Source of the DNA: an uncultured Candidatus Saccharibacteria bacterium
GTDB taxonomy: Bacteria > Patescibacteriota > Minisyncoccia > Phycocordibacterales > WO2-35-19
Length of the DNA stretch: 64,000 nt
Assembly (NCBI GenBank): GCA_964589445.1
Contig: CAZPQX010000001.1
Coordinates: forward strand, 28,600 to 92,599
Reading direction: 5' to 3'
The position numbers were made by a program, and so were the translations under genes. The notes below the pieces were generated by a model. That model saw only the letters and a list, made by a program, of their open reading frames with translations, searched no databases and had not been told where the DNA came from. Below, one piece after another: positions 9,198 to 32,204 of the stretch. The stretch's first letter is position 1. Each line of letters begins with the position of its first letter.

Positions 9198-9214
9198 GCA
9201 CGGGTTTTATATTT

Positions 9215-9736: not shown

Positions 9737-9767
9737 AAATTTTGAATTAGTTTTTATATGTAATATA

Positions 9768-11496: not shown

Positions 11497-11544
11497 GTCC
11501 CCTATTTACATTATAAACTGTTTTATGTTAATATAATTCCCGAT

Positions 11545-11781: not shown

Positions 11782-11808
11782 ATTATAGATTTTAGAAAAT
11801 AGACAGTA

Positions 11809-12162
11809 GTGGATAAAAGCAAAGATACAACTTCATTGGTTGAAACAATTAAAGAAGAAATCCTAGGGAAAGCTTACGAGCTTTCTTTTGCGTTCATAGA
11901 GGCACCGGAGATGCAAAAGCTAAATAAAGAGTATCGAGACAAAGACTACCCCACCGACATACTCTCCTTCCCTCTTTCAGATACAGCAGGCGAGATTTTG
12001 ATATGCAAAGAAGTGGCAGCAGAAAAATCAAAAGATTTTGATATGTCAGAAAGTGATTATTTAGTCTTCCTTGTTATCCACGGCCTACTACACCTTAAAG
12101 GCTATGATCATGGTCAGGAAATGGAATCTCTCGAAAAAAAATACTTGGCCAAATTTAAGTAA
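11809..12162 (+). CDS. ybeY: rRNA maturation endoribonuclease YbeY
   Basis: 117 aa; 'HGLLHLKGYDH' zinc-binding motif. Confidence 0.85.
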   Translation: MDKSKDTTSLVETIKEEILGKAYELSFAFIEAPEMQKLNKEYRDKDYPTDILSFPLSDTAGEILICKEVAAEKSKDFDMSESDYLVFLVIHGLLHLKGYDHGQEMESLEKKYLAKFK

Positions 12163-12233
12163 AATTAAATTTTCTTCATAAATCAACAGGTAAATTTGTA
12201 ACTATCATTAAAAGTATAGTAAAATTTGGTGAT

Positions 12234-13430: not shown

Positions 13431-13522
13431 ATTTAGAACACAAAACTCCATTCTTACAAGTTTTGTAATTAAGGGCTTTTTTTGGTATTATCGAGGTGAT
13501 TGATATTTAATTTAAAGATTTT

Positions 13523-15931: not shown

Positions 15932-17164
15932 TTACTTCCTAGAAACGTCCTTTATTTCTTTAGAGATTATATCTTCTGCATCAGTCAAATCGTCATCAAA
16001 CTTCTCCAAAAACTCAATTTCCTCTTTTGTTAGTTTGCGCTTAAATTCTGCCTTTCTTAATTTTTGAATATATTCTCTTAGGTCACTGTGCAATATATCA
16101 AACGACTTACCGAGGACTTTTTCTGCCTCGAGACTTTCCTTTTTAACCCTTCTGTAGAGGTTGAAGAATTTATACCATCCATACATAATCAAGAGTATAA
16201 ATATTATGACGAGTATTGCTGCGGGTATCAATACTTTCATTAGGCCGATGGTATATGAGCCAATACTCAATATTAGGGGCTTTTCTACAAATATATTTAT
16301 ATTTTGAGATGATAGAGTTATATTTTTATCATCCGCAAGAGCTTCTACCCAAACAGTATAGTTACCTTCTTTTAATATCGGTTGACTAATAAAACTAAAC
16401 TGATAGTAGCTGTTTGTTTTTACTTGGTGAGTTTGTACCAACCCATCCTTGTCCTTTAATGATATTTTGAGTAGACCATACTTATAAGGAGCTGTTCCTG
16501 ATATCTCTATACTCTCATTAACTTTAATTTTAGAGGGGTATAAATCTATATTTAATGGTGGGGCTATCTCACTATCTGTAGACTCTGGTTCATTTTTTGT
16601 TTTTTCTTCGACAGGAAGGAGTGCAGGTTTAGGCTCTTCTACAGGAACAGGCTTTACTGGCTCTACAGCTGGCAAGTTTATTATATTTATTTGTGAATTG
16701 CTGGTGCCAGAGATGATATCTGTACCCAATCCATCGTTTTCTCTAACAGCTGAGTTCGAAAATATTATTGAAGCTAAGCCAGTTTTTTTTGCCCTAAAAA
16801 TAATAGACACAATATTTCCATTACCACCTGTAAATCCAGGGTTAGGCACTCCGCCATTAAAAGTTATTTGGCCGACACTATTTGAAAAGCCTGGCTCCTC
16901 CACCCACAAAGAAAAGATTGAAGATCTTTTATCAATCGAAACTACTTCTAACAAATCTTTCGGAAATTGAATTATACTTTCTGCATTGTTTATTACCTTA
17001 CCTAGAGTGTCGACTGTAATTTGGATATTTATTATATTACCAACTGAAACCTCATTTTGTGACGGTCTCATTTGCAAAAAAGCAGCATCTACTTTTTGAT
17101 TGAAAGAGAAGAAAAATATTGCAAAAAATACCGCTATCAATAACTTACTGTTTAACAATTTCAT
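15932..17164 (-). CDS. membrane-anchored surface protein with N-terminal cohesin-like domain
   Basis: 410 aa; signal peptide; the ~140-aa domain 'VDTLGKVINNAESIIQFPKDLLEVVSIDKRSSIFSLW...NIVSIIFRAKKTGLASIIFSN' resembles a cohesin jelly-roll; single C-terminal TM helix plus charged cytoplasmic tail. Confidence 0.5.
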   Translation of the reverse strand: MKLLNSKLLIAVFFAIFFFSFNQKVDAAFLQMRPSQNEVSVGNIINIQITVDTLGKVINNAESIIQFPKDLLEVVSIDKRSSIFSLWVEEPGFSNSVGQITFNGGVPNPGFTGGNGNIVSIIFRAKKTGLASIIFSNSAVRENDGLGTDIISGTSNSQINIINLPAVEPVKPVPVEEPKPALLPVEEKTKNEPESTDSEIAPPLNIDLYPSKIKVNESIEISGTAPYKYGLLKISLKDKDGLVQTHQVKTNSYYQFSFISQPILKEGNYTVWVEALADDKNITLSSQNINIFVEKPLILSIGSYTIGLMKVLIPAAILVIIFILLIMYGWYKFFNLYRRVKKESLEAEKVLGKSFDILHSDLREYIQKLRKAEFKRKLTKEEIEFLEKFDDDLTDAEDIISKEIKDVSRK

Positions 17165-18041
17165 TTTTTACTTTTCTCATTTTTATAAAGACAAAAATGA
17201 GAATTATTATAAATATAGCCACAAAAGGATAGTAAGTATTTTTGGAATCAGGACTATATACTGACTCTGTGACATTTAAAGCAAAATCATAAGCCTTAAC
17301 GACTATTTTTAGGGATTCATCTTGTTTCTGTAAAACGTATGTATTTCCACTACGAACTGGGGGCAAATCCCCTTCTATAACCTCGTAGTAAGCCACTCCA
17401 GATTCATCATCTACTGTATTAAAAGATAAAAATTTTCGCCCATCAAAAACAGAACCTTCTTGTCCTAAATATATCTCAAAAGAGTTTGGGGGAGTTTGAT
17501 CTTTTTGTAGTATACGAGGCCATTCATCGCGAGACTCAAAGCCTTCTGGTTTTGGCAAAATATTTAATTCAAAATTATCTGTACTTACAGCGTCCTTAGT
17601 GCCCTTCCCGTCATTTAGATAGGCATTGATTTCGGATGTTTTGAATGTTACTTTTCCAGGCTTATCAAGGTTTAGGATTATTTTAAAAACAACCAAATCT
17701 TTAGAGTTGATACCATCTGGTATACCTCCGATAAAAGATACTTCTTTTTCGTTCATCGAGAGTGAAGGTTTTTGGGGCCAAAGAGAAAAAGCAGAGCCTG
17801 CAACACTTAAATCTCCGACTGAAATATTCTTTGATGCATAATCAAAGAATATTTTTCCCTCTATAGCGTTTATTTCCTTACCTTCTGAATCAGCTCTGAC
17901 ATCCACTACTATATTGTCTCCCACAAAAAAATCTTTTTCTTTTGTATCAAAGAATAATGTAGTAGCTGAGACAAAAGAAGGAGCAAACACCAAGCCCACA
18001 AGAACGATGAAAAATATTTTTTTGTTTGATAATTTATTCAT
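17145..18041 (-). CDS. second membrane-anchored cohesin-like protein
   Basis: 298 aa; signal peptide; 'DVRADSEGKEINAIEGKIFFDYASKNISVGDLSVAGSAFSLW' cohesin-like; C-terminal TM anchor 'YYPFVAIFIIILIFVFI'. Confidence 0.45.
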   Translation of the reverse strand: MNKLSNKKIFFIVLVGLVFAPSFVSATTLFFDTKEKDFFVGDNIVVDVRADSEGKEINAIEGKIFFDYASKNISVGDLSVAGSAFSLWPQKPSLSMNEKEVSFIGGIPDGINSKDLVVFKIILNLDKPGKVTFKTSEINAYLNDGKGTKDAVSTDNFELNILPKPEGFESRDEWPRILQKDQTPPNSFEIYLGQEGSVFDGRKFLSFNTVDDESGVAYYEVIEGDLPPVRSGNTYVLQKQDESLKIVVKAYDFALNVTESVYSPDSKNTYYPFVAIFIIILIFVFIKMRKVKNEIVKQ

Positions 18042-18043: not shown

Positions 18044-21000
18044 TTATTTTTTACTTCCCCATTCGTATAACATTATAGAGAAGTCCACCGAGTTCACTTT
18101 ATTGTCTTTGTTGATGTCTACGCAAGGATTTTTGAATGGTTGTAAGGTCTGCCAAAATGAAAGTAGTATTGAAAAGTCTACAGAGTTTACTTTTCTGTCT
18201 GCGTTGAAGTCCGAACCATTACAAGCATTTGGGGAAATAGTTGGGATGATAGGGGTAGCCACAGAGCCACCACCACTTCCTCCCCCACCACCTCCACTTC
18301 CACCACCATTAGATCCCCCACTGCCAGCAACCGCACTAAATGATCGGGAAGCGCTTGAACTTTCTATACCATAATACACCTTCACTTTAAAGAAGTAGTC
18401 CCCTGTACTTGGCACGTCAGCACTCAAGGTGGTATCGAAGTCTTCTCCTGGGTTTATAAATTTAGCAGCTAGTGAGTAGAAGACGTCATCCCCGCCTCCA
18501 CAAGTATTATTTACATTAGAGACAACACACCACTCATATTGATACTCTGCACCATTTGAACCTTCGTTTGTTATGGTGACATCTGCGGCTACCACAGGGA
18601 CAGTGTTATCAGAGATACCCCTAATGATAACTTGTGGTGGGTTTGATGTGACCGTCCAGTAGTCATTGCCTGGCAAAGTTTTACCTGATTCAACTGTGGC
18701 TGAGAACACACTTTCCCATGTGCCAGCTGCAGCGTCGTTTGCTGTAGTGTATGAATACGTGTAAGTACCTACACCAGTCCTTGTCATTGCTACATTATTT
18801 ACTACTACATTACGACTTGGATCATAGATAGTGACAGTAGGTGTGCTGAGTGAGTCAGTAAGTGTGCCGTCGTAGATAGTGGTGACTGTAGCTAAGTAAT
18901 TAGACCCAGCTGAGATCGTGCCGAAATCAGAAGTTGTGACTGTCCATGGTGACTGAGAAGAAAGTGTGAGGGATGTGAGTGTACGTGTTGAAGCATTCCA
19001 AACATCAGTCACTAATGTACCAAATGATGTGAGTGTGCGGCTTCCAGAGCTCCAAACGCTAGCTGGGATGCCGGTAATGCTTGAAAGTAGCTGGGAGACT
19101 ATAGAAGATGATGCAGTGTTGATGACAGCTGCGATTGATGTAGAAGCACTTAGGACTTTTGAATCAGTATTGGCATTTACTGCAGATGTGATACCTGAAG
19201 TTTGTGCATTTGTATTAGCATTTATGTTTGCAGCAAGAGATGTGGATGCTGTTAGTACAGCAGAGTTTGTGTTGGAGTTAACTGCATTTTGAGAGTTTGT
19301 CACCGCCGCTCCGAGCGAAGTTGATGCGCTCAAGACTTGGGAGTTTGTGTTGCTGTTGATATTGGCCTGTGCCGAAGTGATAGCAGCAGCTATAGAGGTT
19401 GAAGCTGTGTTTGTGTTGGCGTTTACTGCAGATGTGATGCCTGAAGTTTCGCTGTCTGTATTTGCGTTAATCTCAGATACGATCGATGACGAAGCGGTTT
19501 GGAGGTTACCGAGTGTAGCGAGTGATCCAGAGTCGAGATTAGCATCGGTGAGGCGGCGGGTGGCATAGCTCCAAACATCAGCAGCAGTGATTGAACCACC
19601 GGAGGTAATGGTCCTCGTACCATATGACCAGACGTCAGCGACTAATGTACCGAAGGAATCAAGCGTTCTCCCTCCATAGCTCCAAACGTTTGCTGGGATG
19701 CTTGTGATACTTCCAAGTACTTGAGAGACGATCGATGACGATGCCGTGTTGATGAGAGCCCCAATAGAAGTGGAGGCGCTTAGGACTCTTGAGTCAGTAT
19801 TTGCGTTTACGATGTCCACGACTGAGGTTGAGGCGTTGTTAACTCTAGTATTGGTGTTGTTATTAATACTTGTCTCGCTATTTGAAACTGCTGCTGCAAT
19901 GGATGTTGAAGCAGTTAGGACAGCTGAGTTGGTGTTTGAATTCACGAGAGCCACAACCGAAGAAGATGCATTACTTATCCTTGTGTCTGTGTTTGCATTA
20001 ACTGCACTTGTGATACCTGATGTCTGAGCATTTGTATTTGCATTTATGTTTGCAGCAAGAGACGTTGAAGCGGTTAGGATGGCAGAGTTGGTATTTGAGT
20101 TAACCTGCGAAGTGATGGATGACGAAGCTGTCTGTAGGTTTCCAAGCGTCGCCAAGGAGCCAGAATCCAGGTTTGCGTCGGTGAGGCGGCGTGTGGCAGC
20201 AGACCAAACTCCAGTTGCGGTGTCAGAGACCAGAGTACCAAAGGATGTGAGGGTGCGGCTTCCAGAGCTCCAAACGTTAGCTGGGATACCGGTAATGCTT
20301 GAAAGTAGCTGGGAAACTATAGACGAGGAGGCTGTATTCATAAAGGCTGCAAGAGAAGTTGATGCAGTCAAAACTCTTGAATCAGTGTTAGCGTTCACAG
20401 CAACTTGAGAGTTTGTCACCGCCGCTCCGAGAGAAGTTGATGCGCTCAAGACCTGAGAGTTGGTGTTGGAATTTATATTTGTTTGAGACGCGGTGATCGC
20501 GGCGGCGATACTAGATGAAGCGCTGTTTGTGTTTGCATTTACAGCACTTGTGACACCGGAAGTCTGAGTGTTTGTGTTTGCGTTGATATTTGCAGCGACA
20601 GATGTAGAAGCGGCTAATATAGCAGCGTCAGTGTTTGAGTTGACAGCAGAGGTGATGCCGGATGTTTGAGTGTTTGTATTGCTATTGATTTGCGAAGTGA
20701 TGGATGATGACGCTGTTTGAAGATTTGAGAGAGTTGCGAGAGAGCCCGAGTCGAGGGTAGCATCGCTGAGGCGGCGAGTGGCATAGCTCCAGACATCGGC
20801 CGCAGTCAATGAGCCTCCAGAAGTTATAGTCCTAGTACCATAAGACCATATGTCTGCGACTAGTGTACCGAAGGAATCAAGAGTTCTGCCTCCATAGCTC
20901 CAAACGTTTGCTGGGATAGAGGTGATACTTCCGAGTACTTGAGAGACGATGGAAGATGATGCTGTGTTAATAAGAGCTCCAAGAGAAGTTGAGGCAGTCA

Positions 21001-22771
21001 AAACTCTCGAATCAGTGTTTGAATTCACGAGAGCTACGACTGAAGATGAGGCATTATTAATTCGAGTGTCGGTATTGGAATTAACTGCAGAAGTAATAGA
21101 TGACGTCTGGGTATTCGTGTTTGCATTGATATTTGCAGCGAGAGATGTCGAAGCTGTTAGGATGGCAGCATTGGTATTTGAGTTAACTGTATTTTGTGAG
21201 TTTGTGACTGCCGCTCCAAGCGAAGTTGATGCACTCAAGACCTGAGAGTTGGTGTTGGAATTTATGTTTGCTTGAGAAGCAGTGATAGCCGCTGCAATAG
21301 AGGTTGAGGCATTGTTTGTGTTTGCGTTCACAGCCGATGTGATACCCGAGGTTTTGGAATCTGTATTTGAATTAATCTCAGATACAATTGAAGATGAAGC
21401 TGTTTGAATATTTGAAAGGGTCGCAAGTGAGCCTGTATCGAGGTTTGCATCTGTCAAACGGCGTGTTGCTGCACCCCATACACCAGTTGCAGTATCCGAT
21501 ACGAGTGTACCAAATGATGTGAGTGTACGACTTCCAGAGCTCCAGACGCTAGCTGGTATGCCGGTGATGCTTGAGAGGAGTTGGGATACGATAGATGACG
21601 AAGCGGTGTTGATGAGGGCTCCAAGAGAAGTCGATGCAGTCAAAACTCTTGAGTCAGTATTAGCATTCACAGCAACCTGTGAGTTTGTGACAGCAGCTCC
21701 AAGAGAGGTTGAGGCGCTCAAGACTTGGGAGTTTGTATTTGAGTTTATGTTTGTTTGAGAAGCAGTGATAGCGGCCGCGATACTAGAGGAAGCACTGTTT
21801 GTGTTTGCATTTACAGCACTTGTGACACCGGAAGTCTGAGTGTTTGTGTTTGCGTTGATATTTGCAGCGACAGATGTAGAAGCGGCTAATATAGCAGCGT
21901 CAGTGTTTGAGTTGACAGCAGAGGTGATGCCGGATGTTTGAGTGTTTGTATTGCTATTGATTTGCGAAGTGATGGATGATGACGCTGTTTGAAGATTTGA
22001 GAGAGTTGCGAGAGAGCCCGAGTCGAGATTTGCGTCGGTGAGGCGGCGGGTGGCGGCAGACCATACACCAGTTGCTGTATCGGATACCAATGTACCAAAT
22101 GATGTGAGACTTCGGCTTCCATAACTCCATATATCAGCCACTAAAGTACCGAAAGATGTAAGTGTCCTACCAGAAAAACCCCAAATTGTTGCTGGGAGGG
22201 TTGAAAATAAAGAAGATGAGGCAGTTTGAATTTGCAAATCAGTGTTGGCATTCACGGCACTTGTGATGCCTGAAGTTTCGCTGTCTGTATTGCTATTTAC
22301 CTGTGAGACTACAGATGATGATGCAACCTGAATCAATGAACCGAGTGAAGAAGAAGCGGTTTGCACATCTGAAAGTGAGGCCACTTGGCTTTCAAGAATA
22401 AAACTCTTGTTTTGTTTTATAAGATCAACCCCCGGAGTACCACAAGCTATTTCAGCTGGCCAAGTACCAAGGGTTGAAGAACCAGCAAAGTTGTAATAAT
22501 GCCATCCATTGGACTCCTCGCTCATCGTTACAGCATTAGCAAACTGTATGTTGTTAGGGCTCCATATGCTTATAGTACAGTCAGTAGTTGATGGTGTGTA
22601 ATCGTCGTTGTAAAGAAATTCCCCTATCTGAAATGCTGTGTCTTTAGGATACCTCGCTATAGCCAGAGCCAAAAGTGGAGTAAACAAAAAAATATTTACA
22701 AACAATATACTTAATATTGTCTTTTGAACTAAAAATTTTTTTATTTTTTCTTTATTCACAAAATTAATCAC
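18044..22771 (-). CDS. giant (1575 aa) Ser/Thr/Asn-rich tandem-repeat surface protein with C-terminal dockerin-like domain
   Basis: N-terminal signal/anchor; repeated blocks 'VWSYGSRTLTSFGTLV...RRLTDANLDSGSLATLSNLQTASSSI' and 'NANTNTQTSGITSAVN' occur at least 4 times. The C-terminus 'DFNADRKVNSVDFSILL...DINKDNKVNSVDFSIML' is a duplicated Ca-binding dockerin-type motif, preceded by a Gly-rich linker. Confidence 0.7.
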   Translation of the reverse strand: MINFVNKEKIKKFLVQKTILSILFVNIFLFTPLLALAIARYPKDTAFQIGEFLYNDDYTPSTTDCTISIWSPNNIQFANAVTMSEESNGWHYYNFAGSSTLGTWPAEIACGTPGVDLIKQNKSFILESQVASLSDVQTASSSLGSLIQVASSSVVSQVNSNTDSETSGITSAVNANTDLQIQTASSSLFSTLPATIWGFSGRTLTSFGTLVADIWSYGSRSLTSFGTLVSDTATGVWSAATRRLTDANLDSGSLATLSNLQTASSSITSQINSNTNTQTSGITSAVNSNTDAAILAASTSVAANINANTNTQTSGVTSAVNANTNSASSSIAAAITASQTNINSNTNSQVLSASTSLGAAVTNSQVAVNANTDSRVLTASTSLGALINTASSSIVSQLLSSITGIPASVWSSGSRTLTSFGTLVSDTATGVWGAATRRLTDANLDTGSLATLSNIQTASSSIVSEINSNTDSKTSGITSAVNANTNNASTSIAAAITASQANINSNTNSQVLSASTSLGAAVTNSQNTVNSNTNAAILTASTSLAANINANTNTQTSSITSAVNSNTDTRINNASSSVVALVNSNTDSRVLTASTSLGALINTASSSIVSQVLGSITSIPANVWSYGGRTLDSFGTLVADIWSYGTRTITSGGSLTAADVWSYATRRLSDATLDSGSLATLSNLQTASSSITSQINSNTNTQTSGITSAVNSNTDAAILAASTSVAANINANTNTQTSGVTSAVNANTNSASSSIAAAITASQTNINSNTNSQVLSASTSLGAAVTNSQVAVNANTDSRVLTASTSLAAFMNTASSSIVSQLLSSITGIPANVWSSGSRTLTSFGTLVSDTATGVWSAATRRLTDANLDSGSLATLGNLQTASSSITSQVNSNTNSAILTASTSLAANINANTNAQTSGITSAVNANTDTRISNASSSVVALVNSNTNSAVLTASTSIAAAVSNSETSINNNTNTRVNNASTSVVDIVNANTDSRVLSASTSIGALINTASSSIVSQVLGSITSIPANVWSYGGRTLDSFGTLVADVWSYGTRTITSGGSITAADVWSYATRRLTDANLDSGSLATLGNLQTASSSIVSEINANTDSETSGITSAVNANTNTASTSIAAAITSAQANINSNTNSQVLSASTSLGAAVTNSQNAVNSNTNSAVLTASTSLAANINANTNAQTSGITSAVNANTDSKVLSASTSIAAVINTASSSIVSQLLSSITGIPASVWSSGSRTLTSFGTLVTDVWNASTRTLTSLTLSSQSPWTVTTSDFGTISAGSNYLATVTTIYDGTLTDSLSTPTVTIYDPSRNVVVNNVAMTRTGVGTYTYSYTTANDAAAGTWESVFSATVESGKTLPGNDYWTVTSNPPQVIIRGISDNTVPVVAADVTITNEGSNGAEYQYEWCVVSNVNNTCGGGDDVFYSLAAKFINPGEDFDTTLSADVPSTGDYFFKVKVYYGIESSSASRSFSAVAGSGGSNGGGSGGGGGGSGGGSVATPIIPTISPNACNGSDFNADRKVNSVDFSILLSFWQTLQPFKNPCVDINKDNKVNSVDFSIMLYEWGSKK
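18950..22200. repeat. near-identical DNA tandem repeats (~1.27 kb period) inside the giant gene
   Basis: Antisense ORFs 20614-20796 and 21886-22122 encode identical C-terminal peptides ('...HPASPLLSTQTLTLLY'), offset by 1272 bp; long identical DNA blocks are visible by eye. Confidence 0.8.
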
Positions 22772-22776
22772 TCATT

Positions 22777-22944
22777 ACAAAAATGTTACTTCCACCGACT
22801 ACTGCAGGGATTTCTGAACAAAGTAATACTCCATTTGATTGTAATAATGCATCGTTAGGTACATAACCAGAATTTCCAGCAGGAATTTCTAGTACAAAAT
22901 CTTGTCTATCACCAGATTGTGCCAAAATATCGTTAATTGCCATA
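22777..22944 (-). CDS. small hypothetical protein (~55 aa)
   Basis: ORF 'MAINDILAQSGDRQDFVLEIPAGNSGYVPNDALLQSNGVLLCSEIPAVVGGSNIFVMSD', tightly packed between neighbouring minus-strand genes. Confidence 0.3.
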
Positions 22945-22947
22945 AAT

Positions 22948-23634
22948 TTACAGACCTAATTTATTTGAAATTTTCTTTTTAACTAATTTTTTTGCAAAAG
23001 CTACAACTTCAGCTGTTGTTGTAGCTGCGGATTCATCTAGTATCTCTGGCTTTTCAGTAATTACATCATCTATATTTGTGGTATCTGATGATGTAGCATT
23101 GTTGTTTTTATTTTCTTCAGGAGTAGAAATGTTTGGGAAAATTGCTTCTGGTGTTGTAGTAGGAACCTCAAGAGAAGGGTTTGACTCTTCAATTGTTGTT
23201 GGTGTGGTTGTAGATATGTTTGATGGTGGAGCAATAATTGGTGGAGTAGTTGTAGCTGATTCGGCCACTTCCGAAGTTTCAGTATTTTCAGTAACCTCAG
23301 TTTCTTCTACTTGTTCTGTGGAAGGAGTGTCACCTGATTCTTGTGGTACGATATCCTCAACCACCTTATCGACAGCAACCTGTTTGCTGTCTTTTCCAAA
23401 AAGACTATCAGGGTCTAACTTCATGACTTCAGCAAGTAATTCATCTGGATTAGAAATAGAATACACCATACCTCCATATGCAATAAACTTTGCTTCATAT
23501 CTGACCAGTGGTTCATTCGGCATCGCAGCAGATGCGCAAATAATAGAATCTCCATCGTTGTAATAACCAGTTTGATCATAAACGACCATCGATGGGTTGT
23601 CTGTAAGCTTTTGTCCTTTTGTTAAATAGATCAT
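22948..23634 (-). CDS. hypothetical protein: ~90-aa N-terminal domain plus Pro/Thr/Glu-rich low-complexity linker
   Basis: 228 aa; 'TTTPPIIAPPSNISTTTPTTIEE' linker; in operon with surface genes. Confidence 0.5.
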   Translation of the reverse strand: MIYLTKGQKLTDNPSMVVYDQTGYYNDGDSIICASAAMPNEPLVRYEAKFIAYGGMVYSISNPDELLAEVMKLDPDSLFGKDSKQVAVDKVVEDIVPQESGDTPSTEQVEETEVTENTETSEVAESATTTPPIIAPPSNISTTTPTTIEESNPSLEVPTTTPEAIFPNISTPEENKNNNATSSDTTNIDDVITEKPEILDESAATTTAEVVAFAKKLVKKKISNKLGL

Positions 23635-23679
23635 ACTCTTTTGTTTAAAATTATATCATGAATTATTATTTACATAATA

Positions 23680-26517
23680 TTACTGTGTTAACACTGCTCT
23701 TACCTTAATATTATCTCCGAGTGAAGCTGGGGTATAACGAATATAAGTTGTTTCGTTTCCTTTATCTGTCGTATTATAACTTCCCCAAGCTCCCCCAGTG
23801 TTTGTTGATTTTTGCCAAGTACCACTATTGGTAGAAGTGGTGTAATCATCTACAAGCAAATCACCATTTACTGCATTGTATAATCTCACACGTAAAGTTG
23901 GCACCGTTCCCCCAAAAGCGGTAGCGAAGCGCCAGACAAATTGTTTATTTACCGGACTCGATAATCCAACAGATGGTTGGTAGTGTGAGTCGGTAGTGAC
24001 AGCTGTGTCGTCATACACCAGAGTAATACTCATGATACGAGCAGGTATACAAAACGTACCAATTGTCGCAAACTCAAACATAAACTGAATTCTTGGTGCA
24101 CCAGAAATACCGGTTAGATCGCCCCCATAATTGATAAGAGTCCATTCACCCGTATTATCATCAATACCACTTATTCTAAAATATATATAGAAAGGCTCTG
24201 TGTTGAGCGAAAACTCACCACTACCAAGGGCGTCATCATGAGAAATAAACACACTTCTAAACTGAGTACAGTTTGGGGTATATAGAGCTGGAGTAATAAC
24301 TCTTTGATTTGAGGAAGATGCATACGTAGAGTGAGCAGAGAGAGGGAGTGAATAGAGTTGGGAAAGAGCTGTTGTTGTACCATGCTTTACGATATGTGCG
24401 ATACCATTTTCGCTCCAGATAGAAGTGACTTGAGAGGCAGTGTTGAAATGAGGGATGGTATAGCTGTTCCAATCAATGACATATGCAGAGCCGGCACCAA
24501 TAGTTCCAGCATTTGATGAAAGTGTGATAGCGGTGGCAGAAGTGAAAGCAGAAATTGTGTACCAAGTAGAAATGGCAGTTGGATCAGTAGAACCAAAACC
24601 GATACGATATCCAACCATAGCTGCGACAAAAAATGTGTTGGTGCCAGTGACCGCGGTACCAGACACAGCCACTGTTCCCGAAGAAATATAAGCATTTCCC
24701 AAAGATGATGCTTGATCTTGCTGTTTATCATCAACCCCCCAAATGTGATCAAAAGCATCTCCAGCAGATGTAGGATATTTTGTAACATAGTGTCTTACAC
24801 CAGTAGCACCAGTAGTAGTAACAATCAATCTATCCATAGCATCTGCAATCTCGACACTGCTCAATAACGAAGTTGCGGGAAATGTACTCGCTGATCCTGG
24901 AGGAATTTCTGGTCGGTTATCAGAGATCCATCCCAGATTCCCAGCAAATATCTTATCAAGCCACGCGCGATAAATACGAGTAGTGGTGACAAAATACAGA
25001 GAGTGCTCCCCTGATCCTGGGCCGTGATTCAAAGTGCCACATCGCCCATTATTTACCCCTGACAAAGTACCTGTGACAAGTTGAGGAGCTGTTGAGACGA
25101 CGTCTGCTGAATCGATAATATAAACAGCACCCGGAGCAATAGTTCCAGCGGATGATGAAAGTGTGATAGCGGTGGCAGAAGTGAAAGCAGAAATTGTGTA
25201 CCAGGTAGTGACCGTGGCAGGACTCGTAGTATTAAAACCAATTTTCATCCCCACCATACTCGAGGTGAATGTTGTGCCAGTGCCAGTCACAGCAGTGCCA
25301 GCCACTTCGACAGTTCCTGTAGTGTAGTAGGCAATGGACATGGTCATCTTGCCAGAGGCGATAGCGCCAGTTGCTCGCAGATTGTAGCGATAGACACGGG
25401 CAAAAGTCGAACCAAATCCATCAAGCACATATGCATAATGAAGGCCCTTGGTCACCTCATCGGCAATGGTCAATCCACATGCTGCTTGGTTGGTGACGAC
25501 GTTGCCAGGAGTACCAGCGTCAGAGAGCCAGTATGTGGCTTTGATATTATCAGTAGTAGTTGCGACGGGAATAGTCGTACCAGTTGGTAAAAAATCAGCG
25601 TAGTTAACTCCTTTCACAAGATGTAGTCCACCATTCGCGACTGTGGCATTGGTAGAAGTGATGGCAAATCGTAATTCCTCGATCACATATGCCGTGCCAG
25701 CAGCAAGAGTGCCTGCACTACTTGCAAGTGTAATACCCGTCTCACTACCAATTGCAGATATGACATACCAGCTCACGATAGCGGTTGGGTCAGTGGAGCC
25801 AAAACCAATACGTGCTCCGACAGCAATGCCTTCATCAAGCCATTTTGTGCCATTGCCAGTCACTGCAGTAGCAGAAACCTCGACAGTGCCAGTCGTATGT
25901 AAATACCTCAGAGACCTAAACCCACGCAAAGTGTGAGCGGCGGCTGAAGTAAGGAGAGTTGCCACAATAAATCCCTTCCATGTATACACGGAAGTGGTTT
26001 TATTGTATTCATAGAGACAAATTTTTCTTGGAGCAACAGAAGTGGCTAAGTTTTCAATCATAAATACCCAGTCAACAGTCGAGCTGTAGGTAATCGCGTG
26101 AGGATACATCATTGGGGTGTTATAAACGACAACATATGGTGTACCGGCAGCGATGGTTCCAGCGGATGAGCCCAAGGTGATACCAGTAGTCGAGGCTCTG
26201 GCACTAATCGCATACCAAGCTGTCACTTTGGCTGGATCAGTCGAACCAAAACCTATCGACATACCAATCATTGAGGTTTGGAAATTTGTAAGGTTTCCAG
26301 TAACCGCTGTGCCAGAGACAGTAACGGTCCCTACATTATCAACCACTTCCTGCATTGGTAGAGCTGTAGCGACAGGCAGAGGTCCGACATATTTATCGGT
26401 CACTGCGGTACCAGTTTTTTGTACGATAAGTGTTCCCAAATTTGTCTTAGTTGCATCATACGAGCTAATTGGTGTCGTACTTCCCGTGAATTTATGTTTT
26501 ACAGCGCGGTATGGCAT
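23680..26517 (-). CDS. large paralogous repeat protein A (945 aa), unknown family
   Basis: Internal ~60-aa repeats 'GTV.VSGTAVTG.GT.F...MVGM.IGFGSTDPT.I..WY.IS...S.T.ITL.SSAGTI.AG..YVI'; conserved C-terminal module 'DDKQQDQ...NEITYIRYTP...KVR.LLTQ' shared with B and C; no signal peptide. Confidence 0.7.
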   Translation of the reverse strand: MPYRAVKHKFTGSTTPISSYDATKTNLGTLIVQKTGTAVTDKYVGPLPVATALPMQEVVDNVGTVTVSGTAVTGNLTNFQTSMIGMSIGFGSTDPAKVTAWYAISARASTTGITLGSSAGTIAAGTPYVVVYNTPMMYPHAITYSSTVDWVFMIENLATSVAPRKICLYEYNKTTSVYTWKGFIVATLLTSAAAHTLRGFRSLRYLHTTGTVEVSATAVTGNGTKWLDEGIAVGARIGFGSTDPTAIVSWYVISAIGSETGITLASSAGTLAAGTAYVIEELRFAITSTNATVANGGLHLVKGVNYADFLPTGTTIPVATTTDNIKATYWLSDAGTPGNVVTNQAACGLTIADEVTKGLHYAYVLDGFGSTFARVYRYNLRATGAIASGKMTMSIAYYTTGTVEVAGTAVTGTGTTFTSSMVGMKIGFNTTSPATVTTWYTISAFTSATAITLSSSAGTIAPGAVYIIDSADVVSTAPQLVTGTLSGVNNGRCGTLNHGPGSGEHSLYFVTTTRIYRAWLDKIFAGNLGWISDNRPEIPPGSASTFPATSLLSSVEIADAMDRLIVTTTGATGVRHYVTKYPTSAGDAFDHIWGVDDKQQDQASSLGNAYISSGTVAVSGTAVTGTNTFFVAAMVGYRIGFGSTDPTAISTWYTISAFTSATAITLSSNAGTIGAGSAYVIDWNSYTIPHFNTASQVTSIWSENGIAHIVKHGTTTALSQLYSLPLSAHSTYASSSNQRVITPALYTPNCTQFRSVFISHDDALGSGEFSLNTEPFYIYFRISGIDDNTGEWTLINYGGDLTGISGAPRIQFMFEFATIGTFCIPARIMSITLVYDDTAVTTDSHYQPSVGLSSPVNKQFVWRFATAFGGTVPTLRVRLYNAVNGDLLVDDYTTSTNSGTWQKSTNTGGAWGSYNTTDKGNETTYIRYTPASLGDNIKVRAVLTQ

Positions 26518-26520
26518 GGA

Positions 26521-28947
26521 TTAATTTTGAGTTAAGAGTGCCCTGACACTAATATTACCGAGTGGCGATGTGGGGATATAGCGAATATAGGTGATTTCGT
26601 TTGTTTTGTCAGTATCGTTATACCCTACCCAATTATTTCCCCCATCGATTGATTTTGTCCAAGCACCATTTGTTGGACTGACCGTGGTATCAGTAAAAAT
26701 AGACACATTGGTAGCGGCGTTAAATAATTCGACTTTAAGTGTCGGCACTACCCCACCGAAAGGCTGAGTAAATCTCCAAACAAAGTGCTCACTTGCAATA
26801 CTCGATAACCCAGTAGAGAGTTGGTAATGTGAATCAGTTGACCCATCTTCGTATGTGACGACCACTTTCATGATGCGTGACGGCAAGCAGATTGCACCTA
26901 TCGTAAAAAACTCAAACATAAATTGAATCGCACTTGCTGCAGTCACTCCAGATAAATCACCAGCGTCATCGACTAGTACCCATGAACTCGTAGCGTCATC
27001 TCCAATATTGGCCGTGCGATAATATACCCTAAATGTCTCAGGGGGCAATATCAAAGGGTTGGCTCCAATATAATGGTTATCGCAAATCAGCACTTGATCA
27101 AATTTTACACAACCAGTTGTATCAATTGATGGAGTGATAATTCTCTGACTCGCAGATGAGGCGTATGTCAAGTGAGCCCCAAACGGCAATGAGTACATCT
27201 GATTTAATAGAGCAGTTGCACCCATCCTCACAATATGGACGACACCGTTACTTGCAGCACATGATAATAGTTGGGCCCCGGTGTTAAAGTGGATTGGTGC
27301 TCTCGGATCGGCGATTGATTGATCTTGTTGCTTATCATCGATACCAAAGATGTGATCAAATGGGGTTGTATCTGTCGAAGGATATCTGGTGACATAATTA
27401 CGAAGCGAGGTGCTAGCAGTAAAGTTGGTAATAACAAAACGATCAATGGAGCTAATATAGGTCATGTTGGTCATGGTGGCAGTGGCTGGGAAAGTAGCGA
27501 CGCCACCAGGGGGGATCTCTTGTCGAGCATTAGCCGCTGTCGCAAAAGGTGTGGCGGCAGCAGTGATAGCGCTAACCGCCGCACAATAGAGACGGGTGGT
27601 AGTAACAAAATACAAAGAAGAAGAGCCTGAAAGTGGGCCATGAGCAGTAGTAGCGATTTCCAAATTTTGCGCTGACTGGTTAGGAATCGTACCAGTCAAA
27701 GCTTGTGTACCAGTAATAACGATATTAGCACCAGCAAGTTGCATTTTACCAGAAGCAGTAGTGTTGTTGGAGCACAAATTATATTTGTATATTATTGCGT
27801 TTGATGTGTTTGTACCATTCAAGACATAGGCAAAATGAGTTTGTTTGTTTGTTTCTGCCTCCACAGCAAGACCGTTCGCTGCAGTGTTTGTAACTGCGCC
27901 GGCTCCCGCATCACAGAGCCAATAGACTCCCCTCTGGTCATTCACCGAAGTCGCGATAGAAGGAAATGTGGAGCCTGCAGTCGTGAAGTCGTGGTAGCCA
28001 GCACCTTTGAGTAGGAAGAGGCCGCCGTTTGCGGCGGTGCTGTTTGTGAGGGCAATAGCAAATCTCAACTCCTCGATGACGTAAGAAGTACCTGCAGGGA
28101 TAACACCAGGTGAGGTGGTAAGTCCGATAGAAGTATTGCTATTGATTTGTCCGATATGATACCACTGCGTGATCTGCGTTGGGTCAGTGGAGCCAAAACC
28201 GATGCGGGGACCGAGGCCTCCGGCGACAGCAGTGGCGCCGGTGCCGGCGGCAATACCATCCGTTTGAAATAGTGTATTTGTCCCAGTAACAATACAATCC
28301 GCAATCACAAAAGCAGTACCAGCAGCATAGGCGCTGGAGGCTCCTAAGATGTTCATAGTGGAAGTGGTGGCAAAAGAAATGATTGGATACCAACAATTAA
28401 TTTGAGCTGGGTTAGTACTTCCAAAACCAATCATTTTACCGACATATGTTGCGAGGAATCCTGTTGCAGAGTGAGTGACGAGACCTGCAGTTGACACAGT
28501 CACGGTACCAGTTGAGTACACTGATGATGGAGCAGCTACAGCTACAGTGCCCGTAGTGTGGAGGTAGCGGAGTGCACGGAAGCCACGGTTTACGTTGGTA
28601 CCGTTTGGTGTGGTTGCTGTTATGAATCCTTTCCAGTTGTAGGTAGCGAGACTCTTGTTGTATTCATATAAAAAGATACGTTTCGTGGCACCAGTGCCGT
28701 TTTCAAGAAGAAACACCCAATCAATAGTGGAGCTATATGTGATGGCATGAGGAAATACCATGGCCACACCAGTGGATTCTTCCATAGGTCTCGCTACCGC
28801 TACTGGCAATGGCCCCACAAAATTATCTTCCGGATTGGTACCACTTTTTTGGATCATCAATGTTCCCAAGTTTGTCTTGGTTGAATCGTATGAAGCTATT
28901 GGTGTCGTTGCTCCGTTGAAGATGTGTTCGACTGCGCGTAGTGACAT
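26521..28947 (-). CDS. large paralogous repeat protein B (808 aa)
   Basis: First 348 aa identical to protein C; C-terminal module shared with A and C. Confidence 0.7.
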   Translation of the reverse strand: MSLRAVEHIFNGATTPIASYDSTKTNLGTLMIQKSGTNPEDNFVGPLPVAVARPMEESTGVAMVFPHAITYSSTIDWVFLLENGTGATKRIFLYEYNKSLATYNWKGFITATTPNGTNVNRGFRALRYLHTTGTVAVAAPSSVYSTGTVTVSTAGLVTHSATGFLATYVGKMIGFGSTNPAQINCWYPIISFATTSTMNILGASSAYAAGTAFVIADCIVTGTNTLFQTDGIAAGTGATAVAGGLGPRIGFGSTDPTQITQWYHIGQINSNTSIGLTTSPGVIPAGTSYVIEELRFAIALTNSTAANGGLFLLKGAGYHDFTTAGSTFPSIATSVNDQRGVYWLCDAGAGAVTNTAANGLAVEAETNKQTHFAYVLNGTNTSNAIIYKYNLCSNNTTASGKMQLAGANIVITGTQALTGTIPNQSAQNLEIATTAHGPLSGSSSLYFVTTTRLYCAAVSAITAAATPFATAANARQEIPPGGVATFPATATMTNMTYISSIDRFVITNFTASTSLRNYVTRYPSTDTTPFDHIFGIDDKQQDQSIADPRAPIHFNTGAQLLSCAASNGVVHIVRMGATALLNQMYSLPFGAHLTYASSASQRIITPSIDTTGCVKFDQVLICDNHYIGANPLILPPETFRVYYRTANIGDDATSSWVLVDDAGDLSGVTAASAIQFMFEFFTIGAICLPSRIMKVVVTYEDGSTDSHYQLSTGLSSIASEHFVWRFTQPFGGVVPTLKVELFNAATNVSIFTDTTVSPTNGAWTKSIDGGNNWVGYNDTDKTNEITYIRYIPTSPLGNISVRALLTQN
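27905..28947. repeat. ~1.04 kb segment identical to 30557-31599 (5' parts of paralogs B and C)
   Basis: Identical antisense ORFs 28065-28304 = 30717-30956 and 28184-28396 = 30836-31048 (offset 2652 bp); the two proteins are identical through '...GVYWLCDAG'. Confidence 0.85.
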
Positions 28948-28950
28948 AAA

Positions 28951-31599: not shown

Positions 31600-31613
31600 A
31601 ATAAAATAACTGA

Positions 31614-32204
31614 TTAAACTTCTAAATAATCCATATTAATCTGCACTGTTCCTGTACCATCTATGACCGCATAAAAAACTTCATCTACCCCGCCTTCTAT
31701 ATAATTTGGATGGTTGTTTGAACCATACAAGCCCCCAGTCTTCGGTGCATAATAATATTCGAAGTTTGTACCGCCTGCGGTAAACCGGAAGGCGACACTA
31801 GTCATATCGGCCGACAAAGAAAATTTTGCATTATAGATACGTATTTTTTTACCAGAAGCTGGTGTGTGCACAGTGCCCGAGCTAGTCAAACCTATAGTTT
31901 TTTTGAGTATAAGATTCCCCGTCTTTATTGCTGGGTCTATCCTTGTATTTGAACTGTCTCTGACACCCACTACACTAGTTGATGGTGTACCTCCCATCAC
32001 CAAAGCTTCTGCTTTACTTGGTAAAAGCTGACTTGCGACGACACCAGCACCGACTATCCCAGCTAGCTTAATAAAAGATCTTTTATCGTTATCAAATTCA
32101 ATATTTGACTCCTGTACCAGATCAACAGGAATAGTATTTGCCACTTGAGTGACATCTACTTTTTTATTTTTTACAAGCTTAAAAGAGTACTCTGAAGAAA
32201 TCAT
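31614..32204 (-). CDS. secreted protein with twin-arginine-like (KR) Tat signal peptide
   Basis: 196 aa; 'DKRSFIKLAGIVGAGVVASQLLPSKAEA' = S/T-(K/R)R-x-F-L/I-K motif + hydrophobic h-region + AxA cleavage site; first gene of the surface operon; divergent from tatC/tatA. Confidence 0.55.
   Translation of the reverse strand: MISSEYSFKLVKNKKVDVTQVANTIPVDLVQESNIEFDNDKRSFIKLAGIVGAGVVASQLLPSKAEALVMGGTPSTSVVGVRDSSNTRIDPAIKTGNLILKKTIGLTSSGTVHTPASGKKIRIYNAKFSLSADMTSVAFRFTAGGTNFEYYYAPKTGGLYGSNNHPNYIEGGVDEVFYAVIDGTGTVQINMDYLEV

What the first reader, a model, noticed from the sequence alone, without database searches (positions are those of the whole stretch)
18044..22771. Giant repeat protein: near-identical ~1.27 kb DNA tandem repeats with a dockerin-like tail
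At least four copies of a ~210-420-aa unit ('SWSYGTRT..TSFGTLV', 'NANTNTQTSGITSAVNANT') are nearly identical at the nucleotide level. This will be prone to slipped-strand length variation, and short-read assemblies of this gene are likely to collapse or expand. The 'D.N.D..VNS.D' pair after a poly-Gly linker is a classic type-I dockerin-like signature.
Basis: seen in the sequence. Interest (0 to 1): 0.55.

Follow-up and report, generated by a model that had tools for sequence, protein, structure and literature searches.

The report
Cohesin-anchored surface fibre of Patescibacteria
A 1,575-residue secreted repeat protein of an ultra-small (Patescibacteria) bacterium ends in a genuine dockerin and is followed, here and in all 80 related genomes examined, by genes for membrane-anchored cohesins, so it is most likely a long cell-surface fibre plugged into the membrane by a cellulosome-style connector; its repeats are alike as protein but mostly not as DNA.

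Summary
The ORF (window 18044-22771, minus strand) is real. It holds about five and a half ~210-aa units, which alternate between two types to give a 424-aa (1272-nt) super-unit. The units are NOT near-identical as DNA: identity is 75-87%, synonymous sites are near saturation (dS ~1.2, dN/dS 0.04-0.08), and only one 233-nt tract is exactly repeated. The dockerin call is correct: Pfam Dockerin_1 scores above its cut-off, and both Ca-loops are intact. New finding: the two genes immediately downstream encode signal peptide + cohesin + C-terminal TM helix. The cohesin fold is supported by AlphaFold/Foldseek (TM 0.74-0.82 to solved cohesins), and 8 of 28 family members hit Pfam Cohesin. The order dockerin gene then cohesin gene(s) holds in 80/80 related Patescibacteria loci. 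Relatives that end in a TM helix or SH3 domain instead of a dockerin have no cohesin nearby. The stalk looks like a polar-core, non-heptad coiled coil ([IV]xxNT motifs, period 3.75), interrupted by undescribed 'VWxYxxRTLTSFGTLV' connectors. Best reading: a membrane-tethered fibre of roughly 120 nm or more, probably for contact or adhesion, and not a cellulosome. The assembly warning is strongly borne out: 43/80 relatives have the gene truncated or gapped. Slippage is unlikely. This is a new variant of a known kind.

The parts
18044..22771 (-). Fibre gene, 1575 aa: signal peptide, Ig-like tip domain, repeat stalk, two Ig-like domains, Gly linker, dockerin
   Evidence: ORF list and translation. 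Family of 41 homologues, most carrying Dockerin_1 plus MG2 Pfam hits.
22658..22771 (-). N-terminal signal peptide (aa 1-38, ...LLALAIA|RY)
   Evidence: Read from the sequence. A helix at aa 5-29 in the AF2 model. Homologues all have a hydrophobic N-terminus ending in AxA just before the conserved domain. The cleavage site is inferred.
22391..22657 (-). N-terminal Ig/macroglobulin-like beta-sandwich (aa 39-127), inferred to be the distal tip
   Evidence: AF2 pLDDT 91-96. Foldseek gives only weak hits to MG/Ig domains. Conserved Cys, Gly and aromatic columns in the family alignment.
18947..22390 (-). Repeat region (aa 128-1275): six stalk segments rich in S/T/A/N with 33 [IVLM]N.NT motifs, separated by six W-motif clusters
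   Evidence: AF2 predicts long helices for the stalks at pLDDT 50-75, and the W clusters are unresolved at pLDDT below 50.
21795..22027 (-). 233-nt tract exactly repeated at 20523-20755 (offset 1272 nt); the only long exact repeat in the gene
20523..20755 (-). Second copy of the 233-nt exact repeat
18329..18946 (-). Two C-terminal Ig-like domains (aa 1276-1376, weak MG2 hit; aa 1377-1481)
   Evidence: Pfam MG2 at E 2.9e-4, below its cut-off. Strongly conserved columns in the family alignment A2. The domain limits are inferred.
18263..18328 (-). Gly/Ser linker (aa 1482-1503), encoded by a 21-nt DNA repeat
18059..18229 (-). Dockerin (aa 1515-1571): Ca-loops at aa 1521-1532 and 1552-1563, with Cys1517 and Cys1550 preceding the loops
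   Evidence: Pfam PF00404 above its cut-off. Alignment to PDB dockerins 2yik and 2vn5_B. Loop positions 3, 5 and 12 are invariant or nearly so in the family. Coordinates.
17145..18041 (-). coh298: signal peptide, cohesin-like domain (aa ~27-165), second domain, C-terminal TM helix. Its start codon lies 2 nt after the fibre gene's stop
   Evidence: BLASTP to the coh410 N-domain gives 29% identity, E 2e-11. A homologue lies directly downstream of the dockerin gene in 80/80 loci. No direct Pfam hit.
15932..17164 (-). coh410: signal peptide, cohesin domain (aa 28-165), disordered linker, Ig-like domain, TM helix, ~80-aa cytoplasmic helix. Overlaps coh298 by 20 nt
   Evidence: AF2 mean pLDDT 82.6, N-domain above 90. 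Foldseek top hits are cohesins with TM 0.74-0.82 and rmsd 2.4-2.9 A. 8/28 family members hit Pfam Cohesin. Homologues are named 'cohesin domain-containing protein' by NCBI. Present in 74/80 loci.
22764..32204 (-). Conserved upstream same-strand module: p196 (31614-32204, Tat-like signal), three paralogues p882/p808/p945 (28951-31599, 26521-28947, 23680-26517), p228 (22948-23634), 58-aa ORF (22764-22943). Function unknown; whether it belongs to the same apparatus is inferred from synteny only
   Evidence: Synteny in the 80 loci. No Pfam hits. p945 has three stretches matching phrog_1591 'tail fiber protein'.
32266..33042 (+). tatC, adjacent to the module here and located between p228 and the fibre gene in most relatives
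   Evidence: Pfam TatC at E 2.5e-39. Synteny.

Best explanation
The gene encodes a Sec-secreted, elongated surface fibre of a Patescibacteria (Paceibacteria-type) cell. Its C-terminal Ca-binding dockerin plugs into the extracellular cohesin domain of one or both type-I membrane proteins encoded immediately downstream (coh298, coh410). This tethers the fibre non-covalently to the cytoplasmic membrane, with the conserved N-terminal Ig-like domain at the distal tip.

The ~1150-residue middle is a series of alpha-helical, probably trimeric, polar-core coiled-coil segments. They have hendecad/pentadecad-type periodicity, with Asn at core position 'd' followed by Thr, and are joined by short W-motif connectors. 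If fully helical, the 823 stalk residues would span about 120 nm or more.

The likely role is contact or adhesion to a host cell or surface, or acting as an envelope spacer.

Shown: the dockerin, the cohesin fold, the membrane-anchor topology features, operon-like packing, and universal synteny. Inferred: that this dockerin binds these cohesins, the coiled-coil and trimer state, the fibre's polarity and length, and the adhesive role.
For: - Dockerin. Pfam scores above its cut-off. Both Ca loops D-x-N-x-D-x-x-x-N-x-x-D are present and align to solved type I dockerins. The loop residues are invariant in the family.
- Cohesins. The AF2 model of coh410 has an N-domain pLDDT above 90. Foldseek's top 50 hits are dominated by cohesin modules, E 1e-8 to 1e-12, TM up to 0.82. 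8/28 homologues hit Pfam Cohesin, best E 1.7e-8. coh298 is a paralogue of that domain.
- Topology. Both cohesin proteins have an N-terminal signal peptide and a C-terminal TM helix, and the fibre has a signal peptide.
- Linkage. The genes are 2 nt apart or overlapping. A coh298-like ORF lies directly downstream of the dockerin gene in 80/80 loci. A coh410-like ORF follows in 74/80, and 3 of the 6 exceptions are contig ends.
- Exclusivity. The 64-kb window holds exactly one dockerin and two cohesins.
- Natural control. Relatives whose C-terminus is a TM helix or an SH3_3 domain have no cohesin-like ORF within 8 kb. The dockerin is therefore interchangeable with other anchoring modules.
- Stalk. 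There are 33 [IVLM]N.NT motifs spaced 15, 19, 22 or 26 residues apart. The hydrophobicity spectrum peaks at 3.75 with power 312, against a shuffle maximum of 146. AF2 predicts long helices. N@d followed by T@e is the commonest polar core motif of trimeric autotransporter stalks, and 15+11-residue repeats occur in the Saa stalk (PMC13580157).
- Selection. dN/dS of 0.035-0.08 between units shows the repeat sequence is under strong purifying selection.
Against: - No binding data, and no complex model could be run.
- The window's own cohesin proteins do not hit Pfam Cohesin even at E 10. The assignment rests on a predicted structure and on transitive homology.
- coh298 was not modelled.
- The stalk helices have only moderate to low confidence (pLDDT 50-75), and the W clusters are unresolved.
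- The spectrum has an equally strong peak at 2.15 (= 15/7), so a beta-rich 15-residue repeat is not excluded.
- Oligomeric state is untested.
- Two cohesins for one dockerin is unexplained.
- No domain with a known ligand was found at the tip, so 'adhesin' is a guess from architecture.
- In the close relative L001 the dockerin is nearly identical while the cohesin genes are only 57-85% identical. That is not what tight co-evolution would predict.
Confidence: 0.65

Rival explanations
1. The anchoring is as described, but the stalk is a beta-rich fibre rather than a coiled coil. It could be a beta-solenoid or a triple beta-spiral built from ~15-residue repeats.
For: The spectrum peak at 2.15 residues (15/7) is as strong as the 3.75 peak. 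The composition is S/T/N-rich. AF2 confidence for the helices is only 50-75.
Against: AF2 predicts continuous helices and no strands in any stalk segment. Spacings of 15, 19, 22 and 26 place I/V/L/A every 3.67-3.8 residues, and variable coil lengths fit poorly with regular solenoids. The stalks contain no Pro and few Gly. The [IV]xxNT motif matches the known N@d/T@e coiled-coil motif (PMC13580157).
Confidence: 0.2
2. The adjacency is not a binding pair. The dockerin would bind another partner, such as a host-cell component, a glycan, or a cohesin encoded elsewhere. The two cohesin proteins would receive other dockerin proteins.
For: No binding evidence exists. In L001 the cohesin genes diverge while the dockerin stays nearly identical. 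Dockerin-domain envelope proteins in Saccharibacteria were discussed as possible glycan binders (PMC10633639).
Against: Synteny holds in 80/80 loci across many candidate phyla-level lineages. The genes are translationally coupled. No other dockerin or cohesin lies in the 64 kb. Cohesin genes are absent where the dockerin is replaced.
Confidence: 0.15
3. A cellulosome-like enzyme complex for polysaccharide degradation.
For: Only the presence of dockerin and cohesin modules.
Against: The fibre and its neighbours have no glycoside hydrolase, CBM or other catalytic Pfam domain. Each anchor protein has a single cohesin. Only one dockerin lies in 64 kb. Anchoring is by TM helix, not SLH or sortase.
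Confidence: 0.02
4. A prophage or tailocin tail-fibre gene rather than a cellular surface structure.
For: W-motif clusters also occur in proteins without a dockerin, one of them in an SPbeta-like phage structural module. Seven of 53 such proteins carry phrog_1084. The upstream p945 has phrog_1591 'tail fiber' modules.
Against: No PHROG hit for the fibre and no tblastn hit in 50,697 phage records. The cluster sits at a fixed chromosomal place next to trxB/ftsZ/ftsA in several genomes. No capsid, terminase, portal or integrase gene lies nearby. Signal peptide plus dockerin plus TM-cohesins is a cellular export-and-anchor design.
Confidence: 0.03
5. The copy number (1575 aa) is an assembly artefact: the true gene has more or fewer 424-aa super-units.
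For: The 233-nt exact repeat at offset 1272 is longer than usual assembly k-mers. 43/80 relatives are truncated or gapped at this gene. Same-strain and relative Logan contigs break inside the gene.
Against: The ORF is uninterrupted and free of N. All other unit pairs differ at 13-25% of bases, so they supply unique k-mers. The unit order A/B alternates regularly.
Confidence: 0.25

Closest known systems
Type I cohesin-dockerin anchoring of cellulosomal proteins to the cell surface (e.g. Clostridium thermocellum OlpA/OlpC cohesins with their dockerins, PDB 3ul4, 4dh2; C. cellulolyticum 2vn5)
   Same: The dockerin is a duplicated Ca-binding F-hand at the C-terminus after a flexible linker. The partner has a ~140-aa beta-sandwich cohesin, and these PDB entries are among the best structural matches. 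The two dockerin halves are 14/20 identical over the loop-helix segment with the same residues (S-V) at positions 10-11. That is compatible with a symmetric, dual-mode dockerin, but this is inference.
   Different: The cargo is a fibre, not an enzyme. The anchor carries one cohesin and is fixed by a TM helix instead of SLH domains or sortase. There is no scaffoldin and no CBM. The organism is a Patescibacteria with a reduced genome. A Cys precedes each Ca-loop, which could form a disulfide. The window's cohesins fall below Pfam detection.
Non-cellulosomal cohesin-dockerin pairs (e.g. Clostridium perfringens GH84C cohesin-FN3, PDB 2w1n, the top Foldseek hit)
   Same: Cohesin and dockerin are used as a general protein-protein connector outside cellulose degradation.
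   Different: Those pairs link secreted enzymes or toxins. Here the pair links a structural fibre to membrane anchors, and it is encoded as a fixed three-gene unit in a whole bacterial lineage.
Stalks of trimeric autotransporter adhesins (YadA, SadA, Saa families)
   Same: Long fibrous surface protein. Polar-core coiled-coil signature with Asn at 'd' followed by Thr. Non-heptad 11- and 15-residue periodicity. Coiled-coil segments interrupted by short connector motifs (PMC13580157).
   Different: No C-terminal beta-barrel translocator and no outer membrane. Anchoring is at the C-terminus by a dockerin. No Pfam TAA domain hit. The trimeric state is not shown. The resemblance is in the way it works, not homology.
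Dockerin-domain envelope protein SEML1_0315 of the Saccharibacterium Southlakia epibionticum, essential for epibiotic growth (PMC10633639)
   Same: A Patescibacteria envelope-associated protein with a dockerin domain, linked by its authors to host interaction.
   Different: It comes from a different class (Saccharibacteria). No cohesin partner or fibre architecture is described in the passage read. Homology to this protein was not tested.
W-motif ('VWxYxxRTLTSFGTLVxD') repeat proteins from metagenomes, some phage-encoded
   Same: They share the 18-residue W-motif clusters: 898 cluster representatives at E<=1e-3.
   Different: Most lack a dockerin (11 of 139 have one), are shorter, and have other C-termini. 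The motif is not in Pfam, and PHROGs gives it no function.

Membership tests
Dockerin type I (Pfam PF00404) | Profile match above the curated cut-off | tested here: met
   28.6 bits against a cut-off of 22.9, E 1.6e-6, aa 1521-1567.
Dockerin type I (Pfam PF00404) | Two duplicated ~22-residue segments, each a 12-residue EF-hand-like Ca loop (Asp/Asn at positions 1, 3, 5, 9, 12) followed by a helix | tested here: met
   DFNADRKVNSVD-FSILLSFW and DINKDNKVNSVD-FSIMLYEW. Both align in register with solved dockerins 2yik and 2vn5_B. The loop residues are invariant or nearly so in 17 homologues.
Dockerin type I (Pfam PF00404) | Ca2+-dependent binding to a cohesin | not testable with these tools
   Needs biochemistry or a complex prediction.
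Cohesin (Pfam PF00963) | Profile match of the protein itself | tested here: not met
   No Cohesin hit for coh298 or coh410 even at E<=10. However, 8 of 28 aligned family members hit it, best E 1.7e-8.
Cohesin (Pfam PF00963) | ~140-150-residue flattened beta-sandwich (jelly-roll) superimposable on solved cohesins | tested here: met
   coh410 aa 28-165 has pLDDT above 90. Foldseek: 4dh2_A TM 0.74, rmsd 2.5 A; 6kgf_C TM 0.78; 2vo8 TM 0.82. Cohesins dominate the top 50. coh298 is assigned only by 29% identity (E 2e-11) to this domain.
Cohesin (Pfam PF00963) | Binds a dockerin | not testable with these tools
   Supported only indirectly, by 80/80 synteny and by the absence of cohesins where the dockerin is replaced.
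Cellulosome | Dockerin-bearing carbohydrate-active enzymes | tested here: not met
   No catalytic or CBM domain in the fibre or its neighbours. Only one dockerin in 64 kb.
Cellulosome | Scaffoldin with multiple cohesins | tested here: not met
   One cohesin-like domain per anchor protein.
Trimeric autotransporter adhesin | C-terminal YadA-type beta-barrel membrane anchor | tested here: not met
   The C-terminus is a dockerin, and no TAA Pfam domain was found.
Trimeric autotransporter adhesin | Trimeric coiled-coil stalk with N@d layers | tested here: inconclusive
   The motif and periodicity fit. Monomer AF2 helices have low confidence. The oligomeric state was not tested.
Phage tail fibre | Similarity to viral fibre families or a location in a viral genome | tested here: not met
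   No PHROG hit, no tblastn hit in phage records, and a conserved chromosomal context.

The most novel reading that the evidence does not exclude
The whole tightly packed ~16-kb same-strand block, with tatC alongside, could encode a previously undescribed surface organelle of Paceibacteria-type Patescibacteria. The block is p196 with a Tat-like signal, one to three highly conserved p945-family proteins carrying phage-tail-fibre-like modules, p228, a 58-aa protein, the dockerin fibre and two TM-cohesins. On this reading the organelle would be a host-contact apparatus, with the fibre tethered to the membrane by cohesin-dockerin plugs. The fibre gene would be exchanged between species by recombination.
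Probability: 0.25. Interest if true: 0.8.

Novelty: new variant of a known kind. Interest (0 to 1): 0.55.

Why it matters
How ultra-small Patescibacteria outside the Saccharibacteria attach to hosts or surfaces is unresolved. A recent study of Paceibacteria on methanogens states that the structures underlying attachment still need to be clarified (PMC10936435).

This locus gives a concrete, widely conserved candidate: 533 stretches in species-representative genomes. It comes with a simple testable mechanism, in which a dockerin plugs into a membrane-anchored cohesin.

It extends cohesin-dockerin biology from enzyme scaffolding to tethering a structural fibre in a monoderm with a minimal genome.

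It points to an undescribed 18-residue W-motif connector shared with phage proteins.

It also warns that this gene is broken or gapped in about half of published MAGs, so copy numbers and 'pseudogene' calls for it are unreliable.

Tried and rejected
- Tandem Repeats Finder found only the Gly-linker repeat, because its longest period is 500. I used self-BLAST instead.
- A self-BLASTP of the protein returned nothing usable.
- NCBIfam gave nothing for the fibre.
- Pfam at E<=10 and phmmer against PDB gave nothing for coh298 or coh410.
- A family profile against PDB sequences gave only a marginal scaffoldin hit, 5aoz at E 0.48. Fold comparison was needed.
- PHROGs and tblastn against phage records gave nothing for the fibre or its W-cluster.
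- Foldseek of the fibre's N-terminal model gave only generic Ig/MG matches, so no ligand could be inferred.
- The exact fibre protein and P0001 could not be located by exact look-up.
- The p945-family profile against PDB gave nothing, and two small contigs for W-motif proteins were uninformative.
- Literature searches for cohesin/dockerin together with Patescibacteria, Parcubacteria or CPR found no description of this cluster in the open-access library. Subscription papers were not searched.
- Rejected readings: cellulosome, prophage tail fibre, and simple slippage-prone identical repeats.
- Caveat: my family HMM for cohesin was built from an alignment that includes coh298 itself, so its hit to coh298 is not independent evidence.
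Full report
THE OBSERVATION

Window 18044-22771 (minus strand) is one uninterrupted 1575-codon ORF with a GTG start.

Six clusters of a short motif (W-x4-R-x-[LI]-[TDS], typically VWSYGxRTLTSFGTLV) lie at aa 196-260, 409-455, 623-685, 833-880, 1029-1090 and 1239-1275. They separate stalk segments of 147-166 residues (68 for the first). The stalk segments are made almost entirely of S, T, A, N, V, I and L.

Units are therefore ~210 aa long.

At the DNA level the best pair is only 87.4% identical over 660 nt, and the remaining pairs are 72-84%. The sole long exact repeat is a 233-nt tract (21795-22027 = 20523-20755); the next longest is 32 nt.

Between units, protein identity is 85-96% while synonymous sites are close to saturation: pS ~0.6, dS ~1.2, dN/dS 0.035-0.08. 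The units are therefore old or deliberately diverged copies held constant as protein by selection. They are not fresh, slippage-prone duplicates. The 233-nt identical patch looks like a recent gene-conversion tract (inference). It is the one place where unequal recombination could add or remove a super-unit.

THE DOCKERIN

Pfam Dockerin_1 matches aa 1521-1567 with 28.6 bits against a cut-off of 22.9.

After the Gly/Ser linker (aa 1482-1503) come two 12-residue loops, DFNADRKVNSVD and DINKDNKVNSVD. Both have Asp/Asn at positions 1, 3, 5, 9 and 12, and each is followed by the helix FSI[LM]L..W.

The segment aligns in register with solved type I dockerins: 2yik at E 2.7e-4, and 2vn5_B. Loop positions 3, 5 and 12 are invariant or nearly invariant in 17 homologues. 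A Cys precedes each loop (C1517, C1550); a disulfide between them is possible but untested.

The next two genes on the same strand are coh298 (17145-18041) and coh410 (15932-17164). The first starts 2 nt after the fibre's stop codon, and the second overlaps the first by 20 nt. Each encodes a signal peptide, a ~140-residue beta domain, a further domain and a C-terminal TM helix.

Neither hits Pfam Cohesin, even at E 10. Several other lines of evidence do point to cohesin:
- Homologues of coh410 are named 'cohesin domain-containing protein [Patescibacteria group bacterium]' by NCBI.
- 8 of 28 aligned family members hit PF00963, best E 1.7e-8.
- The AlphaFold model of coh410 (mean pLDDT 82.6, N-domain above 90) superimposes on solved cohesins with TM 0.74-0.82 and rmsd 2.4-2.9 A. 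Cohesins dominate the top 50 PDB matches.
- coh298 is a paralogue of that domain, at 29% identity and E 2e-11.

The model also shows a disordered linker, an Ig-like domain, a TM helix and a long cytoplasmic helix in coh410. The cohesin therefore faces outward.

CONSERVATION

The fibre belongs to a family of dockerin-bearing proteins of 869-2339 aa in Patescibacteria. One is named 'dockerin type I domain-containing protein [Candidatus Taylorbacteria]', and the best identity to the query is only 47%.

A scan of species-representative genomes found 533 stretches encoding relatives of the C-terminal part, and 80 loci were kept. Nearly all carry Patescibacteria-type labels.

In 80/80 loci a coh298-like ORF lies directly downstream of the dockerin gene. 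In 74/80 a coh410-like ORF follows, and three of the six exceptions are contig ends. Within the 64-kb window there is exactly one dockerin and two cohesins.

More distant relatives of the fibre end in a TM helix or an SH3_3 domain instead of a dockerin. In the loci fetched for these, no cohesin-like ORF lies within 8 kb. The dockerin thus behaves as one of several interchangeable anchoring modules, and the cohesin genes travel only with the dockerin.

This is the main support for the proposed mechanism: the fibre is exported by Sec and held on the membrane by dockerin-cohesin binding. The binding itself is inferred, not shown.

THE STALK

The stalk contains 33 [IVLM]-N-x-N-T motifs. Of the 46 NT dipeptides in the region, 33 have I/V/L/M three residues before. 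The motifs are spaced 15, 19, 22 or 26 residues apart.

Within each spacing class, I/V/L/A recur every 3.67-3.8 residues. The summed hydrophobicity spectrum peaks at 3.75 with power 312, against a maximum of 146 in 200 shuffles. It peaks equally at 2.15, which is 15/7.

AlphaFold, run on a monomer with 20 sequences, predicts long uninterrupted helices for the stalks at pLDDT 50-75. It leaves the W clusters unresolved at pLDDT below 50, and gives a confident Ig/macroglobulin-like sandwich for aa 39-127.

Asn at core position d followed by Thr at e is described as by far the commonest polar core motif of trimeric autotransporter stalks. Stalks built from 15- plus 11-residue segments are known from the Saa adhesin, and such polar coiled coils are typically predicted with low confidence (PMC13580157).

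I therefore read the stalk as a polar-core, non-heptad coiled coil, probably trimeric, with moderate confidence. At 0.15 nm per residue, 823 stalk residues would span about 120 nm (inference). A beta-rich 15-residue repeat remains a live rival.

THE W-MOTIF

An exhaustive HMMER search with one W cluster found 898 cluster representatives at E<=1e-3 and 235 at E<=1e-10. Among the top hits only 11 of 139 carry the family dockerin.

The motif is not covered by Pfam. PHROGs gives only families of unknown function, with phrog_1084 in 7 of 53 proteins. One such protein sits in an SPbeta-like phage structural module with YonB, YonD and YonG.

The connector is thus an undescribed repeat shared by cellular fibres and some phage proteins. 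Its structure is unknown.

ASSEMBLY

- Two Logan contigs from a relative end at the same base, aa 1064, where the repeats begin.
- A same-strain Logan contig (99.7% identical, seen in 9 samples) starts inside the dockerin at window 18188.
- Among the 80 species-representative loci, the gene runs off a contig end in 26. In most of these the end lies 120-525 nt upstream of the start of the match to the unique C-terminal part.
- In 17 loci the gene holds a 100-N run inside the repeat region. That includes 12 of the 14 loci where the N- and C-terminal parts fall in different frames.

These N runs are most simply scaffold gaps. The tool notes that a few stretches are masked, so this is not certain.

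Apparently complete genes range from 416 to 2290 codons, but given the above these lengths are unreliable. The window's copy is uninterrupted and N-free. Because of the 233-nt exact repeat, its copy number still needs long-read confirmation.

COMPARISON WITH KNOWN SYSTEMS

The system works like cohesin-dockerin anchoring of cellulosomal components to the cell surface, but it is not a cellulosome. There are no enzymes, no CBM, no multi-cohesin scaffoldin, and the anchors use TM helices rather than SLH domains.

It resembles a trimeric autotransporter adhesin in stalk design but fails that family's defining feature, the C-terminal beta-barrel.

A dockerin-domain envelope protein is essential for epibiotic growth of a Saccharibacterium (PMC10633639). 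Dockerins on Patescibacteria envelopes are therefore known as domains.

I found no description of the conserved dockerin-fibre plus TM-cohesin unit in the open-access library. The domain annotations already exist in NCBI.

I rate this a new variant of a known kind, of moderate interest. The interest would be higher if the whole upstream module proves to be part of one apparatus.

VERDICT

- The dockerin interpretation is supported.
- 'Near-identical DNA' and 'slippage' are not supported.
- The assembly fragility is strongly supported.
- The best explanation is a membrane-tethered, dockerin-anchored surface fibre, with confidence about 0.65 for the anchoring mechanism and less for the coiled-coil and adhesin details.

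Noticed in passing
window 22764-32204 (-) and 32266-33042 (+): A tightly packed same-strand module lies upstream of the fibre gene. It comprises p196 (with a Tat-like 'KRSFIKLAGIVGAGVVASQLLPSKAEA' signal), three paralogues of 808-945 aa without signal peptides or Pfam hits, p228 (acidic, Thr/Pro-rich) and a 58-aa ORF, with tatC adjacent. The module is conserved next to the fibre gene in most of the 80 loci, in either orientation. The p945 family has more than 1235 hits, up to 88% identical, and all are 'hypothetical'. Its function is unknown.
   Followed up: partly
window 23680-26517 (-), aa ~206-280 and two further stretches: p945 contains a repeated ~70-aa module (…TGTVxVSGTAVTGxGTxF…GxxIGFGSTDPTxIxxWYxI…) that matches the N-terminal part of phrog_1591 'tail fiber protein' (E 1.3e-17, three stretches). 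A family profile finds nothing in PDB sequences.
   Followed up: partly
window 27813-28947 vs 30459-31599: The 5' parts of the paralogues p808 and p882 form a 1.14-kb direct repeat that is 96.9% identical. This is a far more DNA-identical repeat than anything in the flagged gene, and a likelier site for recombination or assembly collapse.
   Followed up: partly
window 18044-19583 vs L001:1-1540: The 3' 1.5 kb of the fibre gene is 99-100% identical in DNA to a relative, apart from one patch at 82% (18834-18983). That relative's adjacent cohesin genes are only 57-85% identical and its housekeeping flank 86.7%. This could reflect recent inter-species recombination of the fibre gene, or a chimeric Logan contig. 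A same-strain contig found in 9 samples also breaks near this junction, at 18188.
   Followed up: partly
window 22764-22943 (-): A 58-aa ORF (MAINDILAQSGDRQDFVLEIPAGNSGYVPNDALLQSNGVLLCSEIPAVVGGSNIFVMSD) has a stop codon that overlaps the fibre gene's GTG start. Homologues follow p228 in 31 of the 80 loci, so it is probably a real small gene.
   Followed up: partly
window 62203-62332 (+): A LOOT RNA (Rfam RF03000) scores 78.1 bits against a gathering score of 46.4.
   Followed up: no
window 54067-58872 (+): A 1601-aa protein has superfamily-1 helicase AAA_11/AAA_12 domains and a C-terminal REase_MTES_1575 nuclease domain. It may be a defence or repair helicase-nuclease.
   Followed up: no
L084 (ENA ERZ19569752 scaffold_291), gene 446-2989: An 847-aa W-motif protein without a dockerin lies in an SPbeta-like phage structural gene module with YonG_N, YonD_N and YonB. 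The W-motif connector is therefore shared with phage proteins.
   Followed up: partly
L077:1-3531 and 8492-13562: One genome carries two copies of the dockerin-fibre plus coh298 plus coh410 unit within 14 kb.
   Followed up: no
window 46055-49423 (-) and 33832-35253 (+): Two further large ORFs (1122 aa and 473 aa) have no Pfam hit.
   Followed up: no
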